This document shows positions 2,814 through 23,155 of a stretch of DNA of 32,000 nucleotides, one piece after another. Below the pieces are notes generated by a model that was not told the DNA's origin, did no database searches, and saw only the letters and a program-made list of their open reading frames with translations. Each line of letters opens with the position of its first letter. The stretch's first letter is position 1. The DNA is from Desulfotalea psychrophila LSv54 (lineage in GTDB: Bacteria; Desulfobacterota; Desulfobulbia; Desulfobulbales; Desulfocapsaceae): NCBI RefSeq assembly GCF_000025945.1, contig NC_006138.1, positions 2,070,001 to 2,102,000 of the forward strand. Reading direction: 5' to 3'. The translations under genes were made by a program, and so were the position numbers.

Positions 2814-2825
2814 ACTGTTCTCCCC

Positions 2826-5022: not shown

Positions 5023-5029
5023 AATAACC

Positions 5030-6600: not shown

Positions 6601-6642
6601 ATTATGCCTATGTCTTAAAATGATAGTACAGATCTTACTGAG

Positions 6643-6678
6643 TAAAGGGTGGCTTGAAAAATTAGACTTTTCTTCAAC
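6643..6678 (-). repeat. dispersed intergenic repeat, copy E (3' module only)
   Basis: The minus strand reads GAAAAGTCTAATTTTTCAAGCCACCCTTTA. This matches copy A at about 29 of 32 positions and matches copy C at 31912-31939. Confidence 0.8.
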
Positions 6679-10597: not shown

Positions 10598-10665
10598 TTT
10601 TTCCACGTGGTGAGGCTGACGGAATCATCCTTCTTCAGGACTTGTTAACTTTACAAGATTCTGGG

Positions 10666-10716
10666 AGCTTGAAAAACAGGCAATTTCGATAAGACAGAGA
10701 TTTAAAGAAAGGCTCC
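10666..10716 (-). repeat. dispersed intergenic repeat, copy D (short, internally deleted)
   Basis: The minus strand reads GGAGCCTTTCTTTAAATCTCTGTCTTATCGAAATTGCCTGTTTTTCAAGCTC. It shares the 5' GGAGCC, TTCTTYAAAT..CTG..TTATCGAAA and TTTTTCAAGC blocks. It begins 2 nt after the upstream stop codon. Confidence 0.6.
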
Positions 10717-10717
10717 A

Positions 10718-11167
10718 TCAAGGTTTTTTCAGGTCTTCCCAGACCTTAAGGTTGCCTGTAGCCAGGAGATCCTCATTAGAAAATACCTCTCCTTTGAGGA
10801 AGCTGATTGCGCCAAATTCAAAGGTCTTCTCCACCACCACCCGTAATCTTTCGCCACCGTGGCCATTTTTGTTGAGGGAGAAATCCTCTAAACCCACCAA
10901 CATGCCATCATGCAGGGGCTTACCTGCTGAAAGTGCTATAAAACCATTCTGCAGGGCTGCTGCTTGGGCGATGAGCTCCACAAAAAATTCAGGAAGGAAC
11001 TGGTCCCCTGCAAAAAAAATACCCTTCTCCGGTAGACGGGCCAGAACAACAGCCCTCTCGGAGTTACACTCCTGCAGAGAATCCACCAGAAGCATCGGCG
11101 CCCGGTGTGGTAGGAGCAGGCCTGCCGGCATGGGTAATTCAAACTCTTCTTTCACTGTATTTTCCAT
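10718..11167 (-). CDS. FabZ/ApeP-like 3-hydroxyacyl-ACP dehydratase (hotdog)
   Basis: LLPHRAPMLLVDSL motif. GAGGA lies 4 nt before ATG 11167, preferred over ATG 11203, which would overlap fabG. Confidence 0.8.
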   Translation of the reverse strand: MENTVKEEFELPMPAGLLLPHRAPMLLVDSLQECNSERAVVLARLPEKGIFFAGDQFLPEFFVELIAQAAALQNGFIALSAGKPLHDGMLVGLEDFSLNKNGHGGERLRVVVEKTFEFGAISFLKGEVFSNEDLLATGNLKVWEDLKKP

Positions 11168-11183
11168 GGTTTCCTCACCAAAA

Positions 11184-11918
11184 CTACATATGCATTCCAC
11201 CATTTACGCTAAAGACCTGACCGGTTATATAGCTGGCATCATCACTGAGGAGAAAGCGAACAACTCCCGCCACCTCTTTTTTGGTGCCCACCCGACCCAG
11301 AGGGATAAGGGGTAACATCTTATCCAAGGGCAGTCCTTCGATCATCTCTGTCTCTATTAAACCGGGAGAGACCACGTTTACCAGGATATTCCTCTTGGCA
11401 AGTTCTCTTGCCAGGGCCTTGGATGCGCCGATAAGACCTGCCTTGGCCGCCGAGTAGTTTACCTGTCCTGCCTGACCAATTTCTCCTGAGAGGGAGGCTA
11501 TGCTTATGATCCGTCCCCTTCTCTTAGAGAGCATATGACGGGAAAAAATCCGACCGAGGATATAGAAGCTGTTGAGGTGGACATCGATGACTGCGTCCCA
11601 CTCCTGCCTCTGCATCATAGGTAGGAGGGTATCTCTTGTAATGCCGGCATTATGGATCATGGCAAAGGGTACAGTCTCAGCCAATAGGGGTTCCAGAATT
11701 TTCGCAGTTGCCGCCTCGTCGGTGACGTCAAAAGCCAGGAGGAGGCATTCTCGTCCAAGTTCCTCTATCTCCTTTTTAACGGTCTGAGCCTGTTCTGTAG
11801 AACTTCTGTAGTTGAGCCAGATATCATAGCCTGCCGCTGCCAGATGGACGGCAATGGCTGCCCCGATACCCCGACTTGCCCCACTTATGAAAACAATCTT
11901 TTTCTCACTCTCTGCCAT
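11184..11918 (-). CDS. fabG: 3-oxoacyl-ACP reductase (SDR)
   Basis: 244 aa. ISGASRGIGAAIA cofactor motif, NAG, and catalytic S...YSAAK. Confidence 0.92.
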   Translation of the reverse strand: MAESEKKIVFISGASRGIGAAIAVHLAAAGYDIWLNYRSSTEQAQTVKKEIEELGRECLLLAFDVTDEAATAKILEPLLAETVPFAMIHNAGITRDTLLPMMQRQEWDAVIDVHLNSFYILGRIFSRHMLSKRRGRIISIASLSGEIGQAGQVNYSAAKAGLIGASKALARELAKRNILVNVVSPGLIETEMIEGLPLDKMLPLIPLGRVGTKKEVAGVVRFLLSDDASYITGQVFSVNGGMHM

Positions 11919-11976: not shown

Positions 11977-12756
11977 TTAGGATAGTCTTATATCTAAATG
12001 TACCGATCCATAGACAGATTCCAGGGTACAGTGCAGGTGCTCCTCTCTCCTTTGAAGTCTTTCGGAGAGGAGGTAGGCGCTGGTCAGTGGATCACTGTGT
12101 CTGAAGAGCTCCTCATTGATCAGGGCCTCTTCCTTGTCCAGCAGATGGTTGACGTCTGACCTGTTCCTGCCCTCTATACTTAACCTATCTATTTTAAATT
12201 GATTGTCAGCTGTACTCTTCTCACTGCTTAAAAGCCAACAGACAGCACCTGCCTGCCAGTTGTCTTCCTCTGCATAATTTTTTTGTCGGACATCCTCTAA
12301 GAGTTGGCTATAGGTCTCCACCTGCAGGACCAGACAGGAGCTGAGCAGGCCACTCTCTATTGCCATCATGGCCTGTTCCAGGGCCCTGAAAAAGGGAAAT
12401 TCAAAGTCCGTGTAGCTCATGGCACATCCCTGAATATTAAAGGTATTTGCCATATAGCCCACCGCCGAGTTGGCAACGGAATGAGAAAATAGGGTGGGGG
12501 AGAGGGGATTTCTATGGGCCACCTCCCTGAGCACAGAAAAATTGGTATCCATGGGGCCGGCAAAGGTGCTGAGAAACAGCCCCTGTGAGATATCTCCTCT
12601 TGCGTCGGGAGAGATATTTCTGCCAAGGACCTCATGGGCTGCCACCGTGCCTAAACGGATGAAATCGTCGGCCCTGCGCAGATGTTTGGCCATGTCTACG
12701 GGGATTTCAAGCTCGGTCAGGAGACCGGCATAAACTTGAGAAATATAGACAGTCAT
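11977..12756 (-). CDS. ketosynthase N-terminal-half protein lacking the active-site Cys (chain-length-factor/ApeC-like)
   Basis: 259 aa. SPTLFSHSVANSAVGYMANTFNIQGCAMSY aligns with the KS region preceding the nucleophile, but no A-C-x-S motif and no His-His half. ATGA overlap with the upstream full KS. Confidence 0.7.
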   Translation of the reverse strand: MTVYISQVYAGLLTELEIPVDMAKHLRRADDFIRLGTVAAHEVLGRNISPDARGDISQGLFLSTFAGPMDTNFSVLREVAHRNPLSPTLFSHSVANSAVGYMANTFNIQGCAMSYTDFEFPFFRALEQAMMAIESGLLSSCLVLQVETYSQLLEDVRQKNYAEEDNWQAGAVCWLLSSEKSTADNQFKIDRLSIEGRNRSDVNHLLDKEEALINEELFRHSDPLTSAYLLSERLQRREEHLHCTLESVYGSVHLDIRLS

Positions 12757-13961
12757 ATCCTTCCTCCCTCCAGAATAAGGACGCTGTTAGAACCACCAAA
12801 GGCCAGCGATTGACTCATGCCAATCCTGCCCAGCAGAGCCCTCTCCTCTCCCTCGGGGATGATGGGAAAGGCGAATAGAGGATCGGGACTGTGACAGCCC
12901 ACCGTCCCTGGAAGATGGCCTTCATTTAAGGACATAAGGGTGAAGACGGCTTCCACGCCACCTGCTGCGCCCAGGGTATGTCCGGTAATGCCCTTGGTGG
13001 AAACCATGGGTAGGGAGGGGCTAAATCCTGCCTGGTAAATAGCCTGGGTCTCGGCCTGGTCGTTTACTGCAGTGCCTGTGCCATGAGCATTTATCATGGA
13101 GATATTGTTTAGATCAAGCCGGGCATTTTTTAGGGCAGAGGCGATGGCCAGTTGTAGACCTCTCCCCTGCGGATGGGGGGCCGTTGGATGGTAGGCGTCC
13201 CCAGCAACCCCATAGCCCCTGACAAAACCTAAGGGGGCTTTTTTGCCGGCGGAATAAGGCTCCATGACAAAGATTCCTGCCCCTTCCCCGAGGTTAAGCC
13301 CCTGCCTCTCTGCATCAAAGGGTTGACAGCTCGTCTCGCTGATAAGGCGCAGGCTCTTAAAACCATTACAGGCAATTCGGGAGAGGGCATCGGCGCCACC
13401 GGCAATGGCAATATCACAGAGCCCCTGCTCCAGCCAAATTTTTGCCATGCCAATGGCATCTGTTCCGGAGGCACAGGCATTGGTGATGACGATTCTGGGG
13501 CCATGTATTCCTAAAAAACGTTGGATATAGGCGGCGAGATTGTTGTCAAGGTGTTGATGGATGGGCCCCGGTTCGGGATTTTTCCCCTCTTCCCATGTCC
13601 TGTAATAGGATTCATCGTCAAAGGTGCTGCCAACGGTGGTGCCCAAGGCCAGGCCGACACGTTTTCCCTGTAGCTCTTCCAGGGAGAGGCCAGCCTGGGC
13701 CAAGGCCTCGTCGATGGCCTGTAGGGCCAGAGAGATTGTCCGGTTATGTGGTTTCTCTCTCTTGCTGTTGAGTACCTGGTAGCTGGTCTCTCCTTCATCG
13801 ACATAGAAACAGGGGGCAGGGAAAAAGGTGGGCAGAGTCTTATTGTTCACCCGTCCTAGCAGTAGGCTCTGCCAGGCAGATTGACAGCTTCGGCCGGCAG
13901 CTGTTACACAGCCATAGCCCCTTACACTGATCTTTGCTAAAGAGTTGTTAGACATGTCCAT
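12753..13961 (-). CDS. beta-ketoacyl-ACP synthase (complete Cys-His-His)
   Basis: 402 aa. TNACASGTDAIG, NAHGTGTAVND, KGITGHTLGAAG. Confidence 0.9.
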   Translation of the reverse strand: MDMSNNSLAKISVRGYGCVTAAGRSCQSAWQSLLLGRVNNKTLPTFFPAPCFYVDEGETSYQVLNSKREKPHNRTISLALQAIDEALAQAGLSLEELQGKRVGLALGTTVGSTFDDESYYRTWEEGKNPEPGPIHQHLDNNLAAYIQRFLGIHGPRIVITNACASGTDAIGMAKIWLEQGLCDIAIAGGADALSRIACNGFKSLRLISETSCQPFDAERQGLNLGEGAGIFVMEPYSAGKKAPLGFVRGYGVAGDAYHPTAPHPQGRGLQLAIASALKNARLDLNNISMINAHGTGTAVNDQAETQAIYQAGFSPSLPMVSTKGITGHTLGAAGGVEAVFTLMSLNEGHLPGTVGCHSPDPLFAFPIIPEGEERALLGRIGMSQSLAFGGSNSVLILEGGRI

Positions 13962-14020: not shown

Positions 14021-14275
14021 CTACTCCATCCTCTCGGCAATAAACTTTGCCAGGGCATTGATCGATTCAAAGACTGTTTTTCCCTCTTCCATATCGGCAA
14101 TGGTTACGCCGAAACGTTTTTCCACTAAAAATGCCAATTCAACAGCATCGAGGGAATCAAGGCCGAGACCTTCACCAAAGAGCTGTCCATCATCGTCAAT
14201 ATCCTCTTTGACAATGCCTTGGATTTTCAGGTCATCTACCAGGATCTCTTTCAGCTGCTGTTTTATTTTCTCCAT
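14021..14275 (-). CDS. acyl carrier protein
   Basis: LGLDSLDAVELAF motif. ATG 14275 with a GGAAG RBS is preferred over the TTG at 14293. Confidence 0.9.
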   Translation of the reverse strand: MEKIKQQLKEILVDDLKIQGIVKEDIDDDGQLFGEGLGLDSLDAVELAFLVEKRFGVTIADMEEGKTVFESINALAKFIAERME

Positions 14276-14325
14276 CTCTCTTCCAAGGTCCAATAGCCCG
14301 GTGGGCTTCTAATATGAAAACTGCA

Positions 14326-14351
14326 CAATAGCAAATTGCCCCCTGCTATTG
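14326..14351 (-). other. intercistronic hairpin (8-bp stem, 10-nt loop) spanning the acyltransferase stop codon, upstream of the ACP gene
   Basis: CAATAGCA (14326-14333) pairs with TGCTATTG (14344-14351). Confidence 0.5.
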
Positions 14352-15239
14352 CTCCCAAAAATTATAAAAATTATACCACTGATAGGGGTATTCCTGCAGG
14401 TAGGACTCTAGCGCTGCCAGGTATCTTTCTGCGCACTCTTGTAACATATCTGCGCGACTATCTCGACCCTTATACTGTGGATAAAAACAATCCCATGCCC
14501 GGACTTGAAAATGTTTTCCCCCTCTGTTTGCTGCCAGTAACACCACCACCGGGGCCGCGGCCGTGGCGGCTAGCATATAGGCGGAGGTTGATATGCGTAC
14601 AGGGCTATTATAGAAGTTTGCCGTAACCGAGTGACCACCGATATAGCGGTCTCCCATTATCACCACCAGATCGCCCGCCCTCAGGGCTGCAGCTGCCGCC
14701 AGCATCCCTCCGAAGGGGCCGTTCACATTTATAATCTCAAAGGGTTTTTTTCCTGAGCGTAGTTCAAAATAGTGTTTTGTCACGGCATGGGCATCATAGT
14801 CCATAAGGACATGGACCTTGGCACCCAGACAATTCAGCCGTGAGAGTGTTGCCTGCCAATTACCCACATGGGCCATAAGCAGTACAGCTCCCTTGCCAGC
14901 CTTAACCGCATCTTCCAGTATTGTCTGGTCAACGACATCCTCTTGCAGGGCTGCTCCCTTACAGATACCAAGCCAGGCCCGATCAACCAGGACAGTGCCA
15001 AAGGAAAATACAACTCTGTAGGCGGCCCAAAATAATTTCCAGTGGCCCATCTGTGGAAAACGCCTCTGCAGATAGGGGGCGAGGGTGCGATGGATTTTTC
15101 GACTACAGATCATATAGAAGAGGATTACCGGCCCCAGGAGGAGTCGTCCTCCCCCCCTACCTCCACAGCGAATGGCAAGATAAAAAAAGCGGTGGCCGAG
15201 TCTTTCCAGCCCTTTGAGAAAACGCCTTGGCCATATCAC
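14346..15239 (-). CDS. LpxL/HtrB-family lysophospholipid/lipid A-type acyltransferase
   Basis: AHVGNWQ (HxGNW motif) and C-terminal YPYQWYNFYNFW. GTGA overlap with the GT2 gene. Confidence 0.75.
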   Translation of the reverse strand: MIWPRRFLKGLERLGHRFFYLAIRCGGRGGGRLLLGPVILFYMICSRKIHRTLAPYLQRRFPQMGHWKLFWAAYRVVFSFGTVLVDRAWLGICKGAALQEDVVDQTILEDAVKAGKGAVLLMAHVGNWQATLSRLNCLGAKVHVLMDYDAHAVTKHYFELRSGKKPFEIINVNGPFGGMLAAAAALRAGDLVVIMGDRYIGGHSVTANFYNSPVRISTSAYMLAATAAAPVVVLLAANRGGKHFQVRAWDCFYPQYKGRDSRADMLQECAERYLAALESYLQEYPYQWYNFYNFWEQ

Positions 15240-16420
15240 GGGGTTTCACCTTTTTGGGAGCGGAGGAGGATAAATTTACGGGAAGAGAAATATACCAGGG
15301 ACGCGCCGACAAGCCCCAGTACGGGGCCTACAACCAGGGAACCTAGTAACCACTCCCAGACTCGTTCCGGTATTTCCAGCAACCATCTCTGCCAGGAGAG
15401 ATCGTAGATGAACTCTCCATGCAGCATATAATGGCCCAATTCAATACAGAGGGCGGGTATCAGGGGGGGCATACAGAATTGGCTTGCCGCCACCGCCGCC
15501 ACTTTATTGAGGTGAAGTCGGCAACAGAAATATATTATGGCAAGGGTATGACAGGCAATAAGAGGCAGGGCGCCGAGGAAGAGGCCGCTGAATACCGCCA
15601 CCGCCAACCAAAATGGAGAGGAATTCTCCTGACATATTCTCTTTAGGGTGCGCAGAGGATGTTTGGCATCCTCCAGGGGTTCTAGCTTCGCTTTCCCCTC
15701 CACCAACTGTTTATGGGGCAGGGGCAGGAGACGCCTGCAAACAAGGGTCGTGTGCAGTTTTGTCAGTCGCCAGTTGTCCAGTCCCTTTCTAAAGTGGCTT
15801 ACCCTCTCATCTGCCGGGGGGTAGTGGACGGAAACTGGGACATCCCGGACCTCAAGGCCACTCCAGACAGATTTCACCAGTACCTCTATTTCAAAATCAT
15901 AGCAGCAGTGCGGCAGATCAAGGGCCAGGATTTCCTCCACGGGGTAGAGGCGCATGCCGCTCTGGGTATCGGCCAGTTCGCAGCCGCATTCCAGTCGGAC
16001 CCAAAAATTAGAAAATGCCTTGCCGAAATGACTGGAGCGAGGCACGGTATCCTGGATCATCTCGCGAGCGCCAATGATGATAGCCGGCCACGGCCCCCTG
16101 TTTGCCTCGGCCACCAGGAGAGGAATCTCCAGGGGGCTGTGCTGGCCATCGGCATCCACCGTGACAATGGCCTGATAGCCATTTTCCAGAGCATAGCTTG
16201 CACCCGTCTTAATGGCCGCTCCCTTGCCACGGTTTTCGGTCAGTCGCAGAGTTGCACAGCCTTGGCCCTTCAGGCTCTGCAGGCCGCTGTCGGTACTGCC
16301 ATCGTCGACCACCAGTACAGGCAGGCCTGTCTCAAGTGCCCTGGTAGCTACCGCCGCCACGCTTGTGCCGTGGTTATAGAGGGGGATGACTATCAGTATT
16401 TTTGCATTATCGAGTTTCAT
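15236..16420 (-). CDS. family 2 glycosyltransferase with C-terminal membrane (DUF2062-like) domain
   Basis: VIPLYNHG...VVDDGSTD...TVDADGQH motifs. Hydrophobic C-terminal third. ATGA overlap with the upstream gene. Confidence 0.85.
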   Translation of the reverse strand: MKLDNAKILIVIPLYNHGTSVAAVATRALETGLPVLVVDDGSTDSGLQSLKGQGCATLRLTENRGKGAAIKTGASYALENGYQAIVTVDADGQHSPLEIPLLVAEANRGPWPAIIIGAREMIQDTVPRSSHFGKAFSNFWVRLECGCELADTQSGMRLYPVEEILALDLPHCCYDFEIEVLVKSVWSGLEVRDVPVSVHYPPADERVSHFRKGLDNWRLTKLHTTLVCRRLLPLPHKQLVEGKAKLEPLEDAKHPLRTLKRICQENSSPFWLAVAVFSGLFLGALPLIACHTLAIIYFCCRLHLNKVAAVAASQFCMPPLIPALCIELGHYMLHGEFIYDLSWQRWLLEIPERVWEWLLGSLVVGPVLGLVGASLVYFSSRKFILLRSQKGETP

Positions 16421-17784
16421 CTGCGACGGCCCTGTTGCAAAAGGAGATCCCAGGAGGGACCAACAAATCCCATCTTATGGGAAGAGGCAATACGAAGGTT
16501 CATCTTGTGACAGGGGTAGACCCGCGTCATATCTCTTCGAAAGGAGGTGAGGATACTGCTCTCCATTTCTGCCCGGCTCAGCTGGGGCGAGTAGTAGAAT
16601 GTAGGCTCAAGCAGAGACTGATCTCTGGCAATAATACCATCCTCGATGGCCCGCTGATGGATATCTGTGCCTGGCAGGATACGAATGCCAATAAAGGCAA
16701 AGACCACACTTTTTTTAAGGAGCTCTATATTGGCCAGGCCGCGGGCCAGGGTAGAGCTGTTTTCTTCGGGGCCGCCAAACATAATAAAATGGGCGCAGGA
16801 AACATCCTCTGCAGTGATTATCTTGTGGGCCGCCAGAACATCCTTGAAGGAAAAGCCCTTTTTTATACCCGCCAGAGTTTCATCCGTTGCCGCATCGGTG
16901 CCCAGCTCTGCCGCAGCAAGACCGGCCCGCTTCAACAACCTTATCTCACTACGACCAATCCCTTGGGGGCGGAAAAAGGCGCACCAGGGGATGGAAACCT
17001 CCTGGCGAATAAGCTCTTCTGCTATTTCCAGATACCTGTCGTCTGGATCGTTAAAGACACTGTCGGTAAAAAAGATATAGCGGCCCCCAAAGTCCCGGAT
17101 CAGTTTTTTAACCTCTTCCACCACCTGCTCTGGCTGATAGTGGCGAATCTTTTTCCCCTCTATTGTCGGATATGAGCAGTAGCTGCAACCATAGGGGCAA
17201 CCCCGTTTTGTCTGCACATTGAGCATGCCTCCGTGCCGGGTGTAGTACTCGGCGATATGGGGCATAAACCTGCTGCAGGGTATCAGCTCTTCTATGGCGG
17301 AAAATTTGAGGATCTTTTTGCTGGGCGGCTGTTTCTTGCCAATTTCTCCGGCAAGCCAGGTCATGACCTCTTCACCCTCACCGACCACGGCATAGTCCGC
17401 CTCTAACAGATCGAGCAGGAGCTGGGGTATGATGGAGACAGCCGGGCCACCGATGACAATAAATGTCTTTTGCAGACGGCGAATCAGCTTGGCAATGGCG
17501 ACGGCACCGTTGAGATAGTTGTCGGGTGAGGCGCTGTCAACGGTATCGATATTACGAATGGACAGACCTATAAAGTCATATCTTGCCGAGGAGAGCAGGG
17601 GCTCAAGGGCCTGCAAGCCGCCATCGGCAAGCATATCAAAGTGTCTGGTCTGGTGGCCACTGCCCTCAAGGGCACCAATAATGCAGGCCGCCCCAAGGGG
17701 GTAAACGGGATAGGGGACGACCACCTGGTTTACAGAGATAATTAAGCTATTTGAACCGGCAACAGCTGCTAACGTCCTTTCCAC
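16417..17784 (-). CDS. B12-binding-domain radical SAM protein
   Basis: N-terminal Rossmann-like VPYPVYPLGAACIIGALEGSGHQTRHFD, then KRGCPYGCSYCSYP (CxxxCxxC). GTG 17784 sits 7 nt after GAGGGG and is preferred over the TTG at 17790. Confidence 0.85.
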   Translation of the reverse strand: MERTLAAVAGSNSLIISVNQVVVPYPVYPLGAACIIGALEGSGHQTRHFDMLADGGLQALEPLLSSARYDFIGLSIRNIDTVDSASPDNYLNGAVAIAKLIRRLQKTFIVIGGPAVSIIPQLLLDLLEADYAVVGEGEEVMTWLAGEIGKKQPPSKKILKFSAIEELIPCSRFMPHIAEYYTRHGGMLNVQTKRGCPYGCSYCSYPTIEGKKIRHYQPEQVVEEVKKLIRDFGGRYIFFTDSVFNDPDDRYLEIAEELIRQEVSIPWCAFFRPQGIGRSEIRLLKRAGLAAAELGTDAATDETLAGIKKGFSFKDVLAAHKIITAEDVSCAHFIMFGGPEENSSTLARGLANIELLKKSVVFAFIGIRILPGTDIHQRAIEDGIIARDQSLLEPTFYYSPQLSRAEMESSILTSFRRDMTRVYPCHKMNLRIASSHKMGFVGPSWDLLLQQGRRR

Positions 17785-17867
17785 AATCAAACCCCTCTAA
17801 CGAATAAATAAACAGTGGGGTTTCCCCTCAATGATCTTGGCCCAAGGCCACTGGCAGAACTCTTTTT

Positions 17868-18401
17868 TTAGGCAGCTAGAAGTTTCATCTCCACCAAAAA
17901 GTGTTCTTCGCTTCCATCCAGATAGTGATCAAACTCACAGGCAAACATCATATCTATACCCGCCTGCATCTGCAACAGGAGTTGGGCCTCCTTCTTGGCA
18001 GTTGGCAGGGGCTGTCCATCTGCAAAGAGGGCATATACGGGGCCCGTAAGGCCGAAGGTCAGGGCCGCCTCGGCCAGGGGAATGTTTGCCAGGGTATAGC
18101 CAAAGAGGGCGGGGCTTGCCAGGGTAGAATTCTCATCCATGGAATCGACAAAGGCCCGATCGGTAAAGAGAGAGCCTCGGCGGCTGGCACCAATAAGACC
18201 GACGTTCAGCCCCTTGCCGTCCAGTCGCTCTCCTGGCATGAGCAGATCTTGTTCCTGCAATAGCTGGGCAAGTTCAACAATCAGCAGGCGGCTGAGAGGA
18301 GACATTCTGCCCCAACGAGGAGGGATGCTGCCCAGTAGCCCCTTTACCTGCTCGTCTGCCTGTGCTGCCAATAAACCTTTTTTTATCTCTAGCGGGATCA
18401 T
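17868..18401 (-). CDS. short ketosynthase-N-terminal-like protein without catalytic residues
   Basis: 177 aa. SPALFGYTLANIPLAEAALTFGLTGPVYAL parallels the 11977..12756 protein and the KS pre-nucleophile region. No Cys/His/His. ATGA overlap with the upstream rSAM gene. Confidence 0.55.
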   Translation of the reverse strand: MIPLEIKKGLLAAQADEQVKGLLGSIPPRWGRMSPLSRLLIVELAQLLQEQDLLMPGERLDGKGLNVGLIGASRRGSLFTDRAFVDSMDENSTLASPALFGYTLANIPLAEAALTFGLTGPVYALFADGQPLPTAKKEAQLLLQMQAGIDMMFACEFDHYLDGSEEHFLVEMKLLAA

Positions 18402-19462
18402 ATTTTCTTTGCATCCTCAGCTCGGTTCAGCCAACAGAGTGGATCTTCTGCCAGATAGTCCCCGGAAACCTGGTAGGCATGACCACGGCAGCCATAGCAG
18501 ACCTCACTGAGATCACAGCTGGCGCAACGTCCCTTGATCTTCGAGCGTATCTGGCGGAGATCCTGAAAAACCGGGGCCTGGCTAATGATCTCTGCCAGAG
18601 ATTGACTGCGGATAGATCCTGCCCTGATATTCACTCCCGGACAGGGCTGTACCTCGCCTATGGAGGTGACCGTACAGGAATATTCATGACGGGCACAGTG
18701 AGAGGCGGCCAGAGGAGGATGGGCAATCCAGTTGCAGGAAAACTCTTCACTGTCAATTCGGGAGAGCTCCTTAAAGAGACGCTCCACCTGCTCAGGCTCG
18801 ACTGCTAAGTCGTTGTGCTCGGTGGCCCGACCCTGCATGGTCATGGCCTCTACATATGGGGAAATGCCCTGGTAACGTGCCCAGCGCCAAAGGTCCGGTA
18901 GCTCATCAAAATTTTGCTGACAGATGATGGTCTCTATGCCCAGGGCACAGTTTTCACCCGGATAACCTGCATCAGTAAGGGCCTTAAAGGCCTTTTCAAT
19001 TGCCTGGTGGGTACCCACTCTCCCGGCTAGATAATCCTGTACTTCCGGAATCTTACTGTTCATCTTCAGGACAACATCAACCTCCAGCTTCTGCAGGCGG
19101 ATGGCAACATCGGAGCTCAGGCTCAGGCCGTTGGTGAAGAGATCGACGGCCAGCCCTTTATTTCGAATATACTCTATGACTTCAAAAAGATGGGGGTAGA
19201 GGAGGGGCTCACCACCACCGAGAACAATTATCTTTTGTGCGCCGAGTCCTATGGCCTGGTCGATAATATCTTTTATCTCTACCAGAGTGAGCTCATTTTT
19301 TAGAGGCACACCGGAGGCGGCATAACAGTAGACGCAGCGTAAATCACAAATACGTGAGAGCTCCAGCTCCAGGGAGAGCAGTCCACCCCGCGCGCGACAC
19401 TTTGCTATCTCTTCCGGACTAAACTCCATTCCCAACTGTTCACTTAAACATGCCATTAACAT
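18398..19462 (-). CDS. radical SAM protein with C-terminal SPASM-type Cys cluster
   Basis: CDLRCVYCY (CxxxCxxC), GGGEPLL, and C-terminal CPG...CASCDLSEVCYGCRGHAY. Confidence 0.85.
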   Translation of the reverse strand: MLMACLSEQLGMEFSPEEIAKCRARGGLLSLELELSRICDLRCVYCYAASGVPLKNELTLVEIKDIIDQAIGLGAQKIIVLGGGEPLLYPHLFEVIEYIRNKGLAVDLFTNGLSLSSDVAIRLQKLEVDVVLKMNSKIPEVQDYLAGRVGTHQAIEKAFKALTDAGYPGENCALGIETIICQQNFDELPDLWRWARYQGISPYVEAMTMQGRATEHNDLAVEPEQVERLFKELSRIDSEEFSCNWIAHPPLAASHCARHEYSCTVTSIGEVQPCPGVNIRAGSIRSQSLAEIISQAPVFQDLRQIRSKIKGRCASCDLSEVCYGCRGHAYQVSGDYLAEDPLCWLNRAEDAKKI

Positions 19463-19483
19463 AATCCTTCAAAAATATAGTAA

Positions 19484-19507
19484 GAACAGATATTTAGCCA
19501 TCTGTTC
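19484..19507 (-). other. perfect 8-bp intercistronic hairpin followed by a U-rich tract (internal attenuator/processing-site candidate)
   Basis: GAACAGAT (19484-19491) pairs with ATCTGTTC (19500-19507), 8-nt loop. On the minus strand it is followed by TTACTATATTTTTG and then the RBS GAAGGA. Confidence 0.45.
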
Positions 19508-19513
19508 CGGAAA

Positions 19514-20818
19514 TTACCTATAATCAAAAAACTTTCTTGGTTTTCGTCCACCATCCGCCGTCATGGTGGCCTTAACCTGTTCGGGAGGAAGCACCGTCAG
19601 GGTAGGTTTTACCCGCAGCTGTGCCTGGAGCATCTCCTCAAATTTTTTGTCCAGCGCCTTATCATCACAGCCAACCACTACATGGACATCATCAATTCCA
19701 TCGGCACCTGTACGTACCTCAACGTATGCTCCAGAAACGGCCTCAACCTTCTGCAGAATATTGAAGATTGTTTCAGGATAAAGGGTTGTCCCCTTATATT
19801 TCAGTCGCTGAGCCAGACGTCCCTCCACGGGGCCCAGTCGTTTGGTGTTCCAGCCACAGGCACATGGGGAGTTTTCCAATCGACTGATATCACCAGTTTT
19901 AAGGCGGACCAGGGGGAATCCCTCGATGCCCAGAGGTGTTACCACCACCTCGCCAGAAACGCCATCGGCTACCACCCTGCCATGATCATCCACCACCTCG
20001 ACCAACATCAGCTCAGGGTGGACATGTCCGCCCCGGGCCATGGTGCATTCGCTAAAGGCAGTTTCAAACTCTGTTGCCCCGTAAGAAGAGTAGAGGTCTG
20101 CTTGCCAGAGATCATGTAGTTGAGCGCCAAGTGGGGTGAGACCGTGATCCGGTTGCCGCACAGATTCACCTATGGTGATAATGCTCTTAATCGAAGAGGT
20201 GGCAGGGTCTATTCCTTCCGCCAAGGCCCACTGGCCGAGATCGCGTAAAAATGTGGGTACCCCGACAATGATCTTGGGCTTTAGGGTGTTTATGGTGTGC
20301 CACTGACGAGCCGGTTGGCCGGGGCCGCTGCGAATTGCCGAGGCGCCCAGAAAGGTTATGCCGGAGTAGTAGGCAAGTCCTGCTACAAAACACCTGTCCA
20401 GAGTTACCGTTAGTAGTACCCTGTCCTCAGGTCGAACTCCCGCGCCATAAAAGGCCATTGCCTCGTTAAAGGCCAGTCGTTTCAGATCTGCTTCGGTATA
20501 GGGGACCACAACCGCATTACCCGTGGTTCCCGATGTCAGGGCAATATCACGAAAGGCCCTTTCATTACGCAAACCAAATGCGTCAGCATGACTGTCCAGC
20601 TGTTCTCTGGTCGTGAAGGGGAGTTGGGAGAGCTCTGCAACAGAGCTTAGAGCCTCTATCTCTTTTTTCCCTATGCCCAACGCCTTTTTGTAAAAGGGTA
20701 TGCTGAGGGCATGGAGCAGATGTCTCTTGAGCAGTACCAGTTGTACCTCTTCAATTTGCGCCAGAGGGGCCCTGCGAAGAGAAATAGCCTGCTCGATATT
20801 GTACTTATCTGCCAACAT
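19514..20818 (-). CDS. PaaK/coenzyme F390 synthetase-family adenylate-forming enzyme (starter-acid activation)
   Basis: 434 aa. TSGTTGNAVVVPYT motif and the size typical of phenylacetate-CoA ligase-like enzymes. Confidence 0.8.
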   Translation of the reverse strand: MLADKYNIEQAISLRRAPLAQIEEVQLVLLKRHLLHALSIPFYKKALGIGKKEIEALSSVAELSQLPFTTREQLDSHADAFGLRNERAFRDIALTSGTTGNAVVVPYTEADLKRLAFNEAMAFYGAGVRPEDRVLLTVTLDRCFVAGLAYYSGITFLGASAIRSGPGQPARQWHTINTLKPKIIVGVPTFLRDLGQWALAEGIDPATSSIKSIITIGESVRQPDHGLTPLGAQLHDLWQADLYSSYGATEFETAFSECTMARGGHVHPELMLVEVVDDHGRVVADGVSGEVVVTPLGIEGFPLVRLKTGDISRLENSPCACGWNTKRLGPVEGRLAQRLKYKGTTLYPETIFNILQKVEAVSGAYVEVRTGADGIDDVHVVVGCDDKALDKKFEEMLQAQLRVKPTLTVLPPEQVKATMTADGGRKPRKFFDYR

Positions 20819-20836
20819 AGTATTGCCTTTTCACTT

Positions 20837-20897
20837 GGGGAAACCTTGAAAAAATAGATTTTTCTTTAAATTTCCGCATTATTCGAAAAATCTTCCA
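20837..20897 (+). repeat. dispersed intergenic repeat, copy B (5' module, plus orientation, antisense to the operon)
   Basis: GGGGAAACCTTGAAAAAATAGATTTTTCTTTAAATTTCCGCATTATTCGAAAAATCTTCC aligns with 31795-31853. Confidence 0.75.
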
Positions 20898-20913
20898 AGC
20901 TAGCTAACCTCTG

Positions 20914-21654
20914 TCAACTAAAATGGCCATATTCCCGGAGAGTGGTCTCTATTTGCTCTTGGACATAACGACGCATGCGCTGAACATCATCTCGACCACC
21001 ACTTTTCTCTGGATAGACAGGTTCAAGTACCACCAACTTTACCCTGCCGCACGACAGTAGTCGTTTTCCCGGGGCGAGGATATCTGCTGATCCCAGGATA
21101 CATACGGGAATGATGGGTCTGTTGGTCTCCTGAGCCAGGGTAAATGCCCCCGTTTTAAACCGGGCCAACTGTCGATTGCGGGAACGATGTCCCTCGGGCC
21201 AGATAGTTACATAGCATCCATCATCAAGCATCTTCTGGCTTTTACTTAAAATCTCAGCCCAACCCTTTTCGGCATTTGCATAGCCGGCAATTTTCATAAA
21301 AAAGCTATACAGGGGGATTTTGAAGGGCCAGGAGGTGACAAAACCACTCTCTACAGGGATAGCTCCAAAAAGATAGGGATCTATGGCCGAATTGTGGTTC
21401 GCAACAAAAATTGAGGCCGGTGGTAAGCTCTTTGTCCGGTAAATAACCTCAACGGGTGCCCAGAAGGGTATTTTGCAGACCAAGATCCAACCGTAAAGAC
21501 AGATTCCCCGGCGCAGAGCAGAGCCGATGCTTACAGAATTAACTGTTACGCAGAGCAGGATAGTAAGGGGGGATATGATGACTGCAATGGCTGTGACCAC
21601 GGTGAAGGCCATAAAAAAATAGCAGTTCCACAATATTTTTTGCAAAAGGATCAT
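20914..21654 (-). CDS. 1-acyl-sn-glycerol-3-phosphate acyltransferase family (PlsC-like) membrane protein
   Basis: N-terminal TMs. HX4D motif (VANHNSAIDP) and WPEGHRS motif. ATGA overlap with the ACP gene. Confidence 0.85.
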   Translation of the reverse strand: MILLQKILWNCYFFMAFTVVTAIAVIISPLTILLCVTVNSVSIGSALRRGICLYGWILVCKIPFWAPVEVIYRTKSLPPASIFVANHNSAIDPYLFGAIPVESGFVTSWPFKIPLYSFFMKIAGYANAEKGWAEILSKSQKMLDDGCYVTIWPEGHRSRNRQLARFKTGAFTLAQETNRPIIPVCILGSADILAPGKRLLSCGRVKLVVLEPVYPEKSGGRDDVQRMRRYVQEQIETTLREYGHFS

Positions 21655-21911
21655 GCAGCTGTCTGGCCCGCCTTTTTCTTAACAATAAATTCTGCCAAAT
21701 CCTTCAGGGTCCAGATGGAGCGGATCTCTTTTTCATCAGCAAGTTTCAGGCCAAATGTTTTTTCTAAAACGATAACCATATCAACGGCATCAAGACTATC
21801 AAGCCCAAGCTCCTCATAGAGGGATGCCTCCGGAGTCATCTCTTCCCGGTTGAGTTCAAACTCTTCTGCAAGTACATCAACGACTGTTTGAAAAACTTCT
21901 TTATCTGTCAT
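21651..21911 (-). CDS. acyl carrier protein
   Basis: 86 aa, LGLDSLDAVDMV. ATGA overlap with the KS gene. Confidence 0.9.
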   Translation of the reverse strand: MTDKEVFQTVVDVLAEEFELNREEMTPEASLYEELGLDSLDAVDMVIVLEKTFGLKLADEKEIRSIWTLKDLAEFIVKKKAGQTAA

Positions 21912-23155
21912 GGGTATATGTCATTTCTTATTGCCAGCGAGGTATTTACACCTCCAAGGGCAAAATTGTTTTTTAATATAGTTTTCAAAAAAGCGGAACT
22001 CTTCTCTCTGATTAGCGAAATACCATTGCAACGGGGATCAGCCAGGGATAAATTTCGGGTAGGGATGATCTCCTGACGCTGCATCATTTCCAGTACAGCT
22101 ATTATCTCCAGGGCTCCGGAGGCACCGAGGGTATGGCCTAAATGTCCCTTAAAAGAACTTACCGGGATCAGGGGGCCAAGGACGCTGGCGATGGCTCTAG
22201 CCTCGGCAATATCACCAAGCTCAGTTCCCGTTGCATGGGCGTTGACATAATCAATATCTGCGGCAATGATCCCTGCCTCCGACATTGCTCTGCTCATGGC
22301 CCTTTGCATGGAGTGGGTATCGGGGTTAGCAATATGGCCACTATCGGTGACATTACCAAAGCCTACTATCTCTCCATATATTTTCGCCCCCCGTGCCTGG
22401 GCTGAGGCCAACTCTTCTAACACTAAAACACCACTTCCTCCACCACAAACTACCCCATCCCGGTCTTTGGCAAAGGGGCGACAGGAAGATTCCGGCTCCT
22501 GATGCCGACGAGAGGCTGCGCCTAATAGATCAAAAACACCGGTCACCGATGGATGCGTCTCTTCGGCTCCGCCACAGAGCATTGCCTGCTGTCTTCCCGC
22601 TTTAATGAGGATATAACCCAAGCCTATGGCCTGAGAGGAGGAGGTGCAGGCACTCGCAGGGCCCCACTGTTCTCCCTTTATCCCCAGGGTAAGGCTGACG
22701 TTTGCCGCGCAGGAGTGACCCATGGACTTAAAAAATTCCCCTGACTTGATTCCCTGCAGTGAGCTGTTGACCAGATACTGTAAGTAAAAAGTTTCATAGG
22801 CCGCAGGGCTACCGGTGGTTGAGCCGATGGCAACACCTATATCACCCGAGGAGAGGCACTCTTTGTCTATGCCACTGTCGGCCACCGCTTCTTGGGAGGC
22901 GATGGTGGCAAACATGGCCATTTTTCCCATGGTACGACGTTGTATGCGGGGTAATATTTTCAGATCAAAATCTGGTACCGGAGCAGCCAGATGACTTCCA
23001 AGGCCTGCTACGTCCTGCCATTCCGGAATAGAGCGAATGGCGGAACATCCCTGCCAGAGATTTTCCAGTAGAGTAGGTACACCCAAACCAAAGGGAGAGA
23101 CTGCGCCTCTGCCAGTTATAACGACCCGTTTATTCACAGTTGCACACTTCTCCAA
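21908..23155 (-). CDS. beta-ketoacyl-ACP synthase, FabF/FabB-like (complete Cys-His-His)
   Basis: ASACTSSSQAIG, NAHATGTELGD, KGHLGHTLGASG. The start could instead be GTG 23137 (GTGA overlap with the upstream stop, N-terminus NKRVVITGRG). Confidence 0.9.
   Translation of the reverse strand: MEKCATVNKRVVITGRGAVSPFGLGVPTLLENLWQGCSAIRSIPEWQDVAGLGSHLAAPVPDFDLKILPRIQRRTMGKMAMFATIASQEAVADSGIDKECLSSGDIGVAIGSTTGSPAAYETFYLQYLVNSSLQGIKSGEFFKSMGHSCAANVSLTLGIKGEQWGPASACTSSSQAIGLGYILIKAGRQQAMLCGGAEETHPSVTGVFDLLGAASRRHQEPESSCRPFAKDRDGVVCGGGSGVLVLEELASAQARGAKIYGEIVGFGNVTDSGHIANPDTHSMQRAMSRAMSEAGIIAADIDYVNAHATGTELGDIAEARAIASVLGPLIPVSSFKGHLGHTLGASGALEIIAVLEMMQRQEIIPTRNLSLADPRCNGISLIREKSSAFLKTILKNNFALGGVNTSLAIRNDIYP

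What the first reader, a model, noticed from the sequence alone, without database searches (positions are those of the whole stretch)
16417..19462. B12-radical SAM and SPASM-radical SAM genes bracket a catalytically dead ketosynthase fragment inside the fatty-acid-type operon
Both proteins have intact CxxxCxxC motifs, and all three genes are chained by ATGA overlaps to the GT2 gene downstream. SPASM enzymes normally act on peptides or proteins, and B12-rSAMs typically methylate or rearrange unactivated carbons. No precursor-peptide ORF fits in the 83-nt and 51-nt flanking gaps. The likely substrate is therefore an ACP-tethered acyl/polyene chain, possibly presented by the 177-aa Cys-less KS-like protein acting as a scaffold. 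C-C bond formation or C-methylation on a polyene chain would be unusual chemistry.
Basis: partly seen in the sequence, partly recalled or inferred. Interest (0 to 1): 0.75.

Follow-up and report, generated by a model that had tools for sequence, protein, structure and literature searches.

The report
Known radical-SAM genes in polyene-lipid cluster
These are genes DP1853-DP1855 of Desulfotalea psychrophila, two radical SAM enzymes and a half-size ketosynthase-like protein in an aryl-polyene-type lipid cluster; the locus was described in 2009 as the "ladderane-like" locus, and its chemistry is still unknown.

Summary
The window is the Desulfotalea psychrophila LSv54 chromosome, and the three genes are DP1855 (SPASM rSAM), DP1854 (177 aa) and DP1853 (B12-rSAM).

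Rattray et al. 2009 compared this same locus with the Kuenenia "ladderane" cluster. DP1853 is a full member of NCBIfam TIGR04072, "lipid biosynthesis B12-binding/radical SAM protein". So the finding is a rediscovery. No function has been shown yet.

New points from this work:
- The operon is an aryl-polyene/flexirubin-type cluster.
- DP1854 is a one-thiolase-half chain-length-factor-like protein. Its best structural match is ApeC. Its homologues occur fused to, or directly after, the cluster's 366-aa ketosynthase type. It is therefore more likely a ketosynthase partner than a radical SAM scaffold.
- The "bracketing" is lineage-specific. In 54 of 73 related loci a third, highly conserved 418-aa B12-like rSAM sits where D. 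psychrophila has its 83-nt gap.
- The SPASM gene belongs to a separable AMP-ligase module and has decayed in the nearest relative. The B12-rSAM is coupled to the GT2/acyltransferase genes.

RiPP and housekeeping readings are rejected. The most likely role is radical tailoring, probably cobalamin-dependent C-methylation, of an ACP- or lipid-bound polyene. This is inferred, not shown.

The parts
18398..19462 (-). DP1855, a radical SAM/SPASM protein (354 aa; the NCBI start at 19456 gives 352 aa).
   Evidence: Pfam hits to Radical_SAM and SPASM. CX3CX2C plus 8 invariant SPASM cysteines. No NCBIfam model above its cutoff. Identity to CAG36584/DP1855. Lies directly after the AMP-ligase gene in 23 of 25 loci that have it.
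17868..18401 (-). DP1854, a 177-aa ketosynthase-like protein with one thiolase half and no active-site Cys (chain-length-factor-like).
   Evidence: Weak PF00109 match. AF2 model with pLDDT 84 and pTM 0.80. Top Foldseek hits are ApeC 6QSP_B and AbApeC 7F28_C/A. HHalign to the cluster's own ApeC-like CLF family gives 93.8% probability, E 1.7e-7. Natural fusions to a KS366-type ketosynthase exist. 100% identical to CAG36583/DP1854.
17785..17867 (-). 83-nt intergenic gap. In most relatives this position holds a conserved 418-aa B12-like radical SAM gene.
   Evidence: The distance from the KS-like stop to the TIGR04072 gene start is about 1.2 kb in most loci, but 83 nt here and 71 nt in L001. A tblastn search with the L007 418-aa protein finds it directly upstream of the TIGR04072 gene in 54 of 73 loci, and finds nothing in this window apart from a weak 25%-identity match inside the DP1853 gene itself.
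16417..17784 (-). DP1853, a B12-binding radical SAM protein that is a member of TIGR04072.
   Evidence: TIGR04072 score of 615 bits against a cutoff of 360. Pfam B12-binding and Radical_SAM hits. Closest solved relatives are TsrM (profile E 3e-41) and AprD4. 100% identical to CAG36582/DP1853.
15236..16420 (-). GT2 + DUF2062 glycosyl/acyl-transferase (ApeJ-like). Its start overlaps the DP1853 stop (ATGA).
   Evidence: Pfam hits. Lies directly downstream of the TIGR04072 gene in 55 of 74 loci, and after one extra rSAM gene in 9 more.
14346..15239 (-). LpxL-type lysophospholipid acyltransferase (ApeD-like).
   Evidence: Pfam PF03279. Conserved synteny.
14021..14293 (-). Acyl carrier protein (second ACP of the cluster).
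   Evidence: Pfam PP-binding. NCBIfam hits.
11977..13961 (-). Ketosynthase (402 aa, 12753-13961) and an ApeC-like half-size chain length factor (259 aa, 11977-12756).
   Evidence: Pfam PF00109/PF02801 for the ketosynthase and PF13723 for the CLF. 4-nt overlap between the two genes.
19514..24633 (-). Module A: CrtI-like FAD oxidoreductase (23134-24633), FabF-like ketosynthase (21908-23155), ACP (21651-21911), PlsC-like acyltransferase (20914-21654) and PaaK/FlxY-like AMP-ligase (19514-20818).
   Evidence: Pfam and NCBIfam hits. The block, with or without the FAD gene, moves as a unit with the SPASM gene: it is absent upstream in many loci and lies downstream of the CLF gene in L048/L049.
5030..6130 (-). 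366-aa ketosynthase with the Cys and both His motifs present. Proposed partner of DP1854.
   Evidence: Pfam hits. Its orthologue directly precedes the DP1854 homologue in Desulfuromonadales loci. It is 37-39% identical to the N-terminal ketosynthase of the fusion proteins P0422 and P0504.
1509..11918 (-). Rest of the operon: FabG/FlxB-like KR, ApeP-like DH, LolA2-like protein, MMPL exporter, lipoprotein, ApeI/FabA-like DH, 4HBT thioesterase, (KS366), DarG-family protein, DarH acyltransferase and an ABC transporter.
   Evidence: Pfam hits. NCBIfam hits.

Best explanation
DP1855, DP1854 and DP1853 are accessory genes of a 23-kb aryl-polyene/flexirubin-type type II PKS-lipid operon of Desulfotalea psychrophila LSv54. 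In the literature this is called the 'ladderane-like' FASII cluster.

**Two modules meet here.**
- Module A is FAD oxidoreductase, ketosynthase, ACP, PlsC-like acyltransferase and AMP-ligase, and it ends with the SPASM rSAM.
- Module B starts with DP1854 and the TIGR04072 B12-rSAM. It continues with GT2, LPLAT, ACP, KS/CLF, KR, DH and the export genes.

**DP1854** is a chain-length-factor-like half-ketosynthase. It most likely heterodimerises with a ketosynthase of the cluster, and the 366-aa KS is the best candidate. It would help set chain length or substrate choice.

**DP1853** most likely binds cobalamin in the TsrM manner and SAM on its [4Fe-4S] cluster in the canonical manner. It would carry out a radical tailoring step, most plausibly C-methylation, on the ACP-bound polyene/aryl chain or on the assembled lipid just before or during GT2/LPLAT processing.

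**DP1855** is a dispensable accessory enzyme that works with the AMP-ligase/ACP loading module on a non-peptide substrate.

**Shown:** gene identities, family membership, synteny statistics, structural similarity and fusions.
**Inferred:** the KS partnership, the methylation chemistry, the substrates and the product.
For: - **Organism and locus.** The three proteins are 100% identical to DP1853-DP1855.
- **Family.** TIGR04072 is met at 615/360 bits.
- **Cluster type.** GT2-DUF2062, LpxL-type acyltransferase, two ACPs, KS plus PF13723 half-CLF, ApeP/ApeI-like DHs, LolA, MMPL, thioesterase and an FlxY-like ligase are present. DarG-family and DarH score above their cutoffs.
- **DP1854 as a CLF.**
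  - Top Foldseek hits are ApeC 6QSP_B (E 1.7e-5) and AbApeC 7F28.
  - ApeC is known to be a single thiolase half that pairs with ApeO (PMC8358021).
  - HHalign ranks the cluster's CLF family first, at 93.8%.
  - Beyond E of about 1e-18, profile hits are mostly 210-270-aa proteins; the five examined carry only a PF00109 N-terminal-domain match.
  - P0422 and P0504 are single polypeptides made of a KS366-type ketosynthase plus a DP1854-like domain.
  - In Desulfuromonadales the homologue (237 aa) directly follows the KS366 orthologue.
- **Modularity.** SPASM lies directly after the ligase in 23 of 25 loci. GT2 lies directly after the TIGR04072 gene in 55 of 74. A DP1854-like ORF lies upstream in 54 of 70. 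Module A is absent or relocated in many loci. SPASM is a remnant in D. vacuolatus.
- **Cobalamin and SAM.** TsrM Arg69, the lower-face residue (PMC8992657, PMC13331322), aligns with the family-invariant SIRN[IL]DTVD motif. TsrM Glu273, which blocks SAM binding, is Val here in the conserved TDSVFND motif.
- **Missing methyltransferase.** No ApeB-type methyltransferase was found among the operon ORFs scanned.
Against: - No experiment links these proteins to any product. Heterologous expression of the Kuenenia orthologues failed (PMC4790861).
- Structural similarity of DP1854 to ApeC is moderate (TM 0.57-0.60), and sequence similarity to ketosynthases is weak.
- In D. psychrophila the proposed partner KS366 is 12 kb downstream. 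The fusion proteins come from metagenome gene calls and could be mis-joined.
- In 54 of 73 loci the KS-like gene is immediately followed by two rSAM genes with tiny gaps or overlaps. This is also what a functional KS-like/rSAM complex would look like.
- Class B rSAMs include non-methylases (BchE, OxsB, AprD4-like), so methylation is only the commonest precedent.
- Kuenenia clusters carry SAM methyltransferases as well as these rSAMs, which weakens the 'ApeB replacement' argument.
- ApeP/ApeI, FlxY, FlxB and LolA2 matches are below the curated cutoffs.
Confidence: 0.55

Rival explanations
1. One reading: the Cys-less KS-like protein is a scaffold or adaptor. It holds the ACP-tethered chain and presents it to the flanking radical SAM enzymes, which form C-C bonds or methylate the chain during elongation.
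For: - In 54 of 73 loci the order is KS-like, then the 418-aa rSAM, then the TIGR04072 rSAM. The junctions are gaps of a few nt or overlaps, in both Desulfobulbales and Desulfuromonadales.
- DP1854 is under strong constraint, with 32 invariant positions in 39 sequences.
Against: - The best structural and profile matches are chain length factors that pair with ketosynthases.
- Fusions are to a ketosynthase, not to an rSAM.
- DP1854 is retained intact where the adjacent 418-aa rSAM is lost, both here and in L001.
- The SPASM gene is not linked to the KS-like gene. It is absent, relocated or separated by a PagL-like gene in many loci.
Confidence: 0.15
2. Rattray 2009 model: the shared rSAMs and the CrtI-like oxidoreductase form an anaerobic desaturation extension of FASII that makes PUFA. 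These PUFA are the precursors of the C31:8/C31:9 hydrocarbons found in D. psychrophila, and of ladderanes in anammox bacteria.
For: - Synteny with Kuste3342/3343 and detection of C31:8/9 hydrocarbons in D. psychrophila (PMC2649909).
- A CrtI-like FAD enzyme is present in module A.
Against: - D. psychrophila makes no ladderanes (PMC2649909).
- In other bacteria C31:9 is made by the Pfa synthase plus OleABCD (PMC6463001).
- The operon has the full gene set of aryl-polyene-lipid clusters, including LolA/MMPL export, GT2 and LPLAT. This points to an outer-membrane polyene lipid, not to bulk PUFA.
- The 2026 heterodimer study refutes one early ladderane proposal.
Confidence: 0.1
3. RiPP cassette: the SPASM and B12 rSAMs modify a ribosomal peptide encoded nearby.
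For: SPASM and class B rSAMs are common RiPP maturases. Weak NCBIfam similarities to SkfB, StsB, PqqE and MftC (PDB hits).
Against: - There is no conserved small ORF. The gaps are 51-111 nt. The 32-codon ORF overlaps the ligase gene and is not conserved.
- No protease, leader-recognition or RiPP transporter context is present.
- All RiPP maturase models score far below their cutoffs.
- Synteny with lipid genes is conserved across orders.
Confidence: 0.02
4. Housekeeping cofactor enzymes placed here by chance: the SPASM protein as an AhbD/NirJ-type haem enzyme and the B12-rSAM as a BzaD-type lower-ligand enzyme.
For: Apart from TIGR04072, the best-scoring named models are AhbD (156 bits) and BzaD (175 bits).
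Against: - Both scores are far below the cutoffs of 500 and 450.
- TIGR04072 is met instead.
- The genes are translationally coupled to lipid genes, and the synteny is conserved in dozens of species.
- The SPASM gene is decayed in a free-living relative.
Confidence: 0.02

Closest known systems
Kuenenia stuttgartiensis 'ladderane' FASII cluster kuste3335-3352 (rSAMs Kuste3342/Kuste3343, ligase Kuste3344, GT Kuste3335)
   Same: Published as syntenic with this very locus (DP1853 with Kuste3342, DP1855 with Kuste3343). It has the same ligase-rSAM-rSAM order, and also a CrtI-like enzyme, FabF paralogues, ACPs and a glycosyltransferase (PMC2649909, PMC4790861).
   Different: D. psychrophila makes no ladderanes. 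Kuste3342 and Kuste3343 have consecutive locus tags, so no DP1854-type gene lies between them, judged from the locus tags only. Kuenenia sequences could not be fetched here. The Kuenenia cluster also has SAM methyltransferases.
Aryl polyene lipid (APEL) clusters of E. coli CFT073, Xenorhabdus doucetiae and Acinetobacter baumannii (ApeA-R), and the flexirubin clusters
   Same: Shared features are a KS plus half-size CLF (ApeO/ApeC), a second KS (ApeR), two ACPs, KR, two DHs, a thioesterase, an adenylating ligase, GT2-type ApeJ, LPLAT ApeD and LolA/MMPL export. DarG and DarH are as in flexirubin clusters.
   Different: Those clusters have no radical SAM genes and no CrtI-like oxidoreductase, and they have only one CLF. 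They carry the SAM methyltransferase ApeB, which is absent here. No product or pigment is known for D. psychrophila.
ApeC chain length factor (PDB 6QSP_B, 7F28_A/C)
   Same: A single thiolase half with no catalytic Cys, at about half the size of a ketosynthase. It is the best structural match to DP1854.
   Different: DP1854 is shorter (177 aa against about 200-240), with only 16-18% identity and TM of about 0.6. It is not adjacent to a ketosynthase in this genome, and it forms its own tight family of about 165-205-aa proteins.
TsrM (tryptophan 2-C-methyltransferase, PDB 6WTE) and BzaD, class B cobalamin rSAMs
   Same: Same B12-binding plus rSAM architecture. The TsrM Arg69 lower-face motif is conserved. 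Both are the closest characterised relatives by profile.
   Different: TsrM Glu273, which blocks SAM ligation, is Val here, so radical chemistry is not excluded. The substrate is unrelated. Scores are far below the cutoffs of those equivalog models.

Membership tests
TIGR04072 lipid biosynthesis B12-binding/radical SAM protein (DP1853) | Whole-protein HMM score above the curated cutoff (360 bits). | tested here: met
   615.1 bits, E 5.8e-185, covering model positions 2-442 of 443.
TIGR04072 lipid biosynthesis B12-binding/radical SAM protein (DP1853) | N-terminal B12-binding domain plus a radical SAM core with CX3CX2C. | tested here: met
   PF02310 and PF04055 hits. C196/C200/C203 are invariant.
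TIGR04072 lipid biosynthesis B12-binding/radical SAM protein (DP1853) | Gene neighbourhood of fatty-acid/polyketide-type lipid genes. | tested here: met
   GT2, LPLAT, ACP and KS lie downstream in most of the 80 loci.
TIGR04072 lipid biosynthesis B12-binding/radical SAM protein (DP1853) | A defined catalytic activity. | not testable with these tools
   No member has been characterised. The reviews still list the function as only proposed (PMC13459092).
TsrM-type non-radical cobalamin methylase | Arg under the corrin (TsrM Arg69). | tested here: met
   TsrM VRNTDTV aligns with the invariant SIRN[IL]DTVD. The residue's role is taken from PMC8992657.
TsrM-type non-radical cobalamin methylase | Glu ligating the unique Fe (TsrM Glu273), which blocks SAM. 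| tested here: not met
   TsrM TDSEFN aligns with the conserved TDSVFND, so the residue is Val here.
SPASM-domain radical SAM (DP1855) | A radical SAM core plus a C-terminal Cys-rich SPASM domain for two auxiliary clusters. | tested here: met
   PF04055 and PF13186 score above their cutoffs. There are 8 invariant C-terminal Cys.
Named SPASM equivalogs (AhbD, NirJ, MftC, PqqE, sactipeptide maturases) | HMM score above the curated cutoff. | tested here: not met
   AhbD 156/500, TIGR04053 141/395, NirJ2 138/500, MftC 122/265, PqqE 86/381.
RiPP biosynthetic cassette | An adjacent conserved precursor-peptide gene. | tested here: not met
   There is no ORF in the 51- and 83-nt gaps. The small ORFs are not conserved.
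ApeC-type chain length factor (DP1854) | A single thiolase half lacking the catalytic Cys and the C-terminal His residues. | tested here: met
   The 177-aa protein matches PF00109 positions 68-170 only, and the Cys position is not conserved. The model topology matches ApeC best.
ApeC-type chain length factor (DP1854) | Encoded next to, and forming a heterodimer with, a ketosynthase. | tested here: inconclusive
   It is not adjacent to a ketosynthase in this window. It is adjacent in Desulfuromonadales and fused in P0422 and P0504. Dimer formation cannot be tested with these tools.
ApeC-type chain length factor (DP1854) | Membership of Pfam PF13723 (Ketoacyl-synt_2). | tested here: not met
   PF13723 is hit by the 259-aa CLF but not by DP1854. 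The relationship is seen only by HHalign.
Aryl polyene / flexirubin-type gene cluster | The core gene set: KS + half-CLF, second KS, 2 ACPs, KR, 2 DHs, TE, adenylating ligase, GT2-DUF2062, LPLAT and LolA/MMPL export. | tested here: met
   All are present by Pfam. DarG-family scores 141/70 and DarH 485/300.
Aryl polyene / flexirubin-type gene cluster | Family-specific models above their cutoffs (ApeP-like, ApeI-like, FlxY, FlxB, LolA2). | tested here: inconclusive
   All score just below the cutoffs: ApeP-like 23.4/27, ApeI-like 21.2/28.5, FlxY 419/520, FlxB 275/340, LolA2 117.6/125.
Aryl polyene / flexirubin-type gene cluster | A SAM-dependent aryl methyltransferase (ApeB) and an aryl-polyene pigment product. 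| tested here: not met
   No methyltransferase domain was found in any operon ORF scanned. The product was not examined and cannot be tested here.
Ladderane biosynthetic cluster | The organism makes ladderane lipids. | not testable with these tools
   The literature reports no ladderanes in D. psychrophila (PMC2649909).

The most novel reading that the evidence does not exclude
The DP1854-type half-ketosynthase would be an adaptor that docks cobalamin radical SAM enzymes (the 418-aa rSAM and TIGR04072) onto the ketosynthase/ACP machinery. Radical C-methylation or C-C bond formation would then happen on the growing ACP-bound polyene during elongation. This would be an on-line radical tailoring mode unknown for type II PKS/FAS systems, and it would bear on how anammox bacteria build ladderanes. 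D. psychrophila (two rSAMs), D. vacuolatus (one) and Desulfosediminicola (three) would form a natural deletion series for it.
Probability: 0.15. Interest if true: 0.8.

Novelty: already known. Interest (0 to 1): 0.4.

Why it matters
The function of the radical SAM enzymes in 'ladderane-type' lipid clusters has been open since 2006-2009. These clusters are predicted in many anaerobes, and relatives of the B12-rSAM were found in at least 586 species-level genomes here.

D. psychrophila can be grown in pure culture, unlike anammox bacteria. Three results make the question more tractable:
- The clusters are aryl-polyene-lipid-like.
- The half-ketosynthase is a CLF-type ketosynthase partner.
- Close relatives differ naturally in how many rSAMs they carry.

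As a scan finding, however, it re-describes a published locus.

Tried and rejected
- **RiPP reading.** I searched the gaps and the whole operon for small ORFs and tested the only candidate (32 codons, 19456-19554) against 80 loci. It is not conserved.
- **Housekeeping reading.** All named cofactor and maturase models score far below their cutoffs.
- **Cobalamin riboswitch or other RNA.** There are no Rfam hits in the window.
- **Internal promoter or terminator in the gaps.** Consensus scans gave counts at shuffle level. One hairpin lies in the ligase/SPASM gap and was not pursued.
- **Direct sequence link of DP1854 to solved structures.** Only a marginal FabF hit was found, at E 0.06.
- **Literature on TIGR04072.** No paper was found.
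- **Kuenenia sequences.** I could not obtain them. The genome-collection scan returns only the 80 best loci, all closer relatives, so the anammox comparison rests on the literature.
- **Complex prediction of DP1854 with ketosynthases or rSAMs.** Not attempted. The structure tool folds single chains and gives no interface measures.

Full report
**1. What is there**

The window carries one long minus-strand operon, from about 24633 to 1509, with mostly overlapping or closely spaced genes. The three genes of the finding are intact.
- 18398-19462 encodes a radical SAM/SPASM protein (Pfam PF04055 and PF13186). It has CX3CX2C at C39/C43/C46 and eight invariant cysteines in the SPASM domain.
- 17868-18401 encodes a 177-aa protein. 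Its only database signal is a weak match to the middle of the ketosynthase N-terminal domain (PF00109, E 1.5e-4).
- 16417-17784 encodes a B12-binding radical SAM protein with an invariant C196/C200/C203 motif.

The SPASM/177-aa and B12-rSAM/GT2 junctions are ATGA overlaps. An 83-nt gap separates the 177-aa gene from the B12-rSAM gene, and a 51-nt gap precedes the SPASM gene. The one correction is that the three genes are not all chained by overlaps.

**2. Where it comes from, and that it is already known**

All three proteins are 100% identical to proteins of Desulfotalea psychrophila LSv54 on its 3.52-Mb chromosome. They are DP1853 (B12-rSAM, CAG36582), DP1854 (177 aa, CAG36583) and DP1855 (SPASM, CAG36584).

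Rattray et al. 2009 (PMC2649909) found this locus to be 'strikingly' syntenic with the Kuenenia stuttgartiensis FASII/'ladderane' cluster. The published reviewer comments name the pairs Kuste3343/DP1855 and Kuste3342/DP1853. That paper found no ladderanes in D. psychrophila, but it did find C31:8/C31:9 hydrocarbons.

DP1853 scores 615 bits on NCBIfam TIGR04072, 'lipid biosynthesis B12-binding/radical SAM protein' (model name rSAM_ladder_B12, cutoff 360). Heterologous expression of the Kuenenia orthologues gave no detectable protein (PMC4790861). A 2026 review still treats the role of rSAMs in these clusters as only proposed (PMC13459092). 'Ladderane' clusters are routinely predicted in Desulfobacterota and other non-anammox phyla without a known product (PMC9902471).

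**3. What kind of operon it is**

The rest of the operon has the gene set of aryl-polyene-lipid (APE/APEL) and flexirubin clusters:
- a GT2+DUF2062 protein and an LpxL-type acyltransferase
- two ACPs
- a ketosynthase with a PF13723 half-size chain length factor, plus a second, short ketosynthase
- a FabG/FlxB-like reductase and ApeP-like and ApeI/FabA-like dehydratases
- a 4HBT thioesterase and a PaaK/FlxY-like AMP-ligase
- LolA and an MMPL exporter
- a DarG-family protein, DarH and an ABC transporter

DarG-family and DarH pass their curated cutoffs. ApeP/ApeI, FlxY, FlxB and LolA2 fall just below theirs. So this is a relative of those clusters, not a typical member.

In Xenorhabdus the equivalent ApeD and ApeJ attach a conjugated fatty acyl chain and the aryl polyene to a glycerol-phosphate-GalNAc backbone (bioRxiv 10.1101/2020.12.19.423268).

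Compared with canonical APE clusters, this operon has five extra genes: a CrtI-like FAD oxidoreductase, a third FabF-like ketosynthase, the two rSAMs and DP1854. The ApeB methyltransferase is missing.

**4. The 177-aa protein**

The family is tightly conserved, with 32 invariant positions in 39 sequences, so it is not a decaying fragment. Against FabF, the stretch that should hold the active-site Cys is variable D/E/T-type sequence.

An AlphaFold2 model (pLDDT 84, pTM 0.80) finds its best PDB matches in two structures. These are ApeC, the chain length factor of the Xenorhabdus APE synthase (6QSP_B, E 1.7e-5), and Acinetobacter ApeC (7F28_C/A). ApeC is known to be a single thiolase half that heterodimerises with the ketosynthase ApeO (PMC8358021).

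Profile-profile comparison ranks the operon's own 259-aa CLF family first (93.8%, E 1.7e-7), ahead of the three ketosynthases.

An exhaustive profile search finds a tight group of about 165-205-aa proteins, and beyond it mostly 210-270-aa proteins. It also finds single polypeptides (P0422 at 613 aa, P0504 at 592 aa) in which a full ketosynthase is followed by a DP1854-like domain. That ketosynthase is 37-39% identical to the window's 366-aa KS.

In Desulfuromonadales loci the homologue is 237 aa and directly follows the orthologue of that same KS.

I therefore read DP1854 as a second, truncated chain-length-factor-type partner of a ketosynthase, most likely the 366-aa one. This is an inference from structure, fusion and gene order. 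No binding was tested.

**5. The 'bracketing' is a junction of two modules and is lineage-specific**

A genome-collection scan found relatives of DP1853 in at least 586 species-level genomes, and 80 loci were retrieved. They include Desulfobulbales, Desulfuromonadales, a Desulfobacter MAG, a Holophagaceae MAG and a Terasakiella isolate. I mapped all operon proteins onto these loci. The results:
- GT2 lies directly after the TIGR04072 gene in 55 of 74 loci, and after one extra rSAM gene in 9 more.
- A DP1854-like ORF lies upstream in 54 of 70 loci.
- The SPASM gene was seen in only 25 loci, and in 23 of these it lies directly after the AMP-ligase.
- The block of ketosynthase, ACP, PlsC-like acyltransferase, ligase and SPASM (with the FAD oxidoreductase in most cases) is missing upstream in many loci. 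In L048/L049 it sits downstream of the CLF gene instead.
- In Desulfurivibrio-type loci a PagL-like gene separates the SPASM gene from the KS-like gene.
- In 54 of 73 loci a highly conserved 418-aa B12-like rSAM (58-84% identity across orders) sits between the KS-like gene and the TIGR04072 gene. D. psychrophila and its closest relative Desulforhopalus vacuolatus have only an 83- or 71-nt gap there.
- D. vacuolatus has also lost the SPASM gene. It keeps only a C-terminal remnant in a 649-nt spacer.
- Desulfuromonadales carry yet another B12-rSAM (483 aa) before the GT2 gene, and none of the Desulfuromonadales loci retrieved shows a SPASM gene.

**6. What the rSAMs probably do**

The closest solved relatives of the TIGR04072 family are TsrM (profile E 3e-41) and AprD4. 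The closest named model is BzaD, far below its cutoff.

TsrM Arg69 sits under the corrin and stabilises cob(I)alamin (PMC8992657, PMC13331322). It aligns with the family-invariant SIRN[IL]DTVD motif, which argues for real cobalamin use.

TsrM Glu273 blocks SAM ligation and so blocks radical chemistry. Here it is Val, in the conserved TDSVFND motif. Canonical SAM binding and 5'-dA radical formation are therefore possible.

These points, the tight coupling to the GT2/LPLAT genes and the lack of an ApeB-type methyltransferase lead to my preferred reading. DP1853 would be a cobalamin-dependent radical C-methylase, or a related tailoring enzyme, acting on the ACP-bound or lipid-linked polyene/aryl chain. 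I hold this with only moderate confidence, because class B rSAMs also catalyse cyclisations and rearrangements.

The SPASM protein's best similarities are to AhbD and NirJ2, which act on tetrapyrroles rather than peptides. Its fixed position after the AMP-ligase suggests a role in the loading/starter module. Its loss in a close relative shows that it is dispensable.

**7. Rejected readings**
- RiPP: there is no conserved small ORF.
- Housekeeping haem or B12 enzymes: the curated cutoffs are missed by a wide margin, and the synteny is with lipid genes.
- Ladderane synthesis: none occurs in this organism (PMC2649909).
- PUFA/C31:9 synthesis: elsewhere this hydrocarbon comes from Pfa plus OleABCD (PMC6463001), and the operon looks like an outer-membrane polyene-lipid pathway. 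This reading is not formally excluded.

**8. Verdict**

But the locus and the idea of rSAMs acting on lipid chains in it were published in 2009, and the family is curated.

This analysis adds four points:
- the assignment of the operon to the aryl-polyene-lipid type
- the CLF-type identity and likely ketosynthase partner of DP1854
- the two-module architecture
- the natural series of one, two or three rSAMs in related cultured species

Novelty: already known. Interest: 0.4.

Noticed in passing
window 1-1000 and 1500-24600, compared with 24600-32000: The operon has a GC content of 49-58%. The downstream flank is 43-52%, and the first kilobase is only 31%. This may indicate a horizontally acquired cluster.
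   Followed up: no
window 19483-19508 (minus strand): A 10-bp-stem hairpin followed by a T-rich tail lies in the 51-nt gap between the AMP-ligase and SPASM genes. It could be an attenuator or an RNA-processing site between the two modules.
   Followed up: no
L007 8757-10013, and the same position in 54 of 73 related loci: A 418-aa B12-like radical SAM protein with no NCBIfam model above cutoff. It is more conserved across orders (58-84% identity) than the TIGR04072 protein. It is absent from D. psychrophila and D. vacuolatus at this position.
   Followed up: partly
L001 about 8744-9395 (Desulforhopalus vacuolatus): The SPASM gene is reduced to a C-terminal remnant ('...GCRERICHVTRDDLAENLLCQRNRTEDAKERL') in a 649-nt spacer. 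The nearest relative has therefore lost two of the three rSAMs.
   Followed up: partly
L073 11582-13033 and other Desulfuromonadales loci: A further 483-aa B12-binding rSAM lies between the TIGR04072 gene and GT2, and none of the Desulfuromonadales loci retrieved shows a SPASM gene.
   Followed up: partly
L026 7511-8155: In Desulfurivibrio-type loci a PagL-like (lipid A 3-O-deacylase family) outer-membrane protein gene is inserted between the SPASM gene and the KS-like gene.
   Followed up: no
proteins P0422, P0504 and P0385 (metagenomic): P0422 and P0504 are natural fusions of a KS366-type ketosynthase with a DP1854-like domain. P0385 is a tandem duplication of the CLF-like domain.
   Followed up: partly
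L029 (5.4-kb contig of a MAG labelled Promethearchaeota archaeon): The contig carries a typical bacterial B12-rSAM, GT2, LPLAT and ACP block, with the B12-rSAM 51% identical to the query. This is probably a binning error rather than an archaeal cluster.
   Followed up: no
window 3584-5022: A DarG-family protein and the DarH acyltransferase (flexirubin/dialkylresorcinol-type NCBIfam models, both above cutoff) lie at the 3' end of the operon. An ABC transporter follows them.
   Followed up: no
window 24895-28316 (+ strand): A divergently transcribed MFS transporter, MarR regulator and second MFS transporter unit lies next to the operon's 5' end. A rubrerythrin gene and an AraC-type regulator lie further on.
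   Followed up: no
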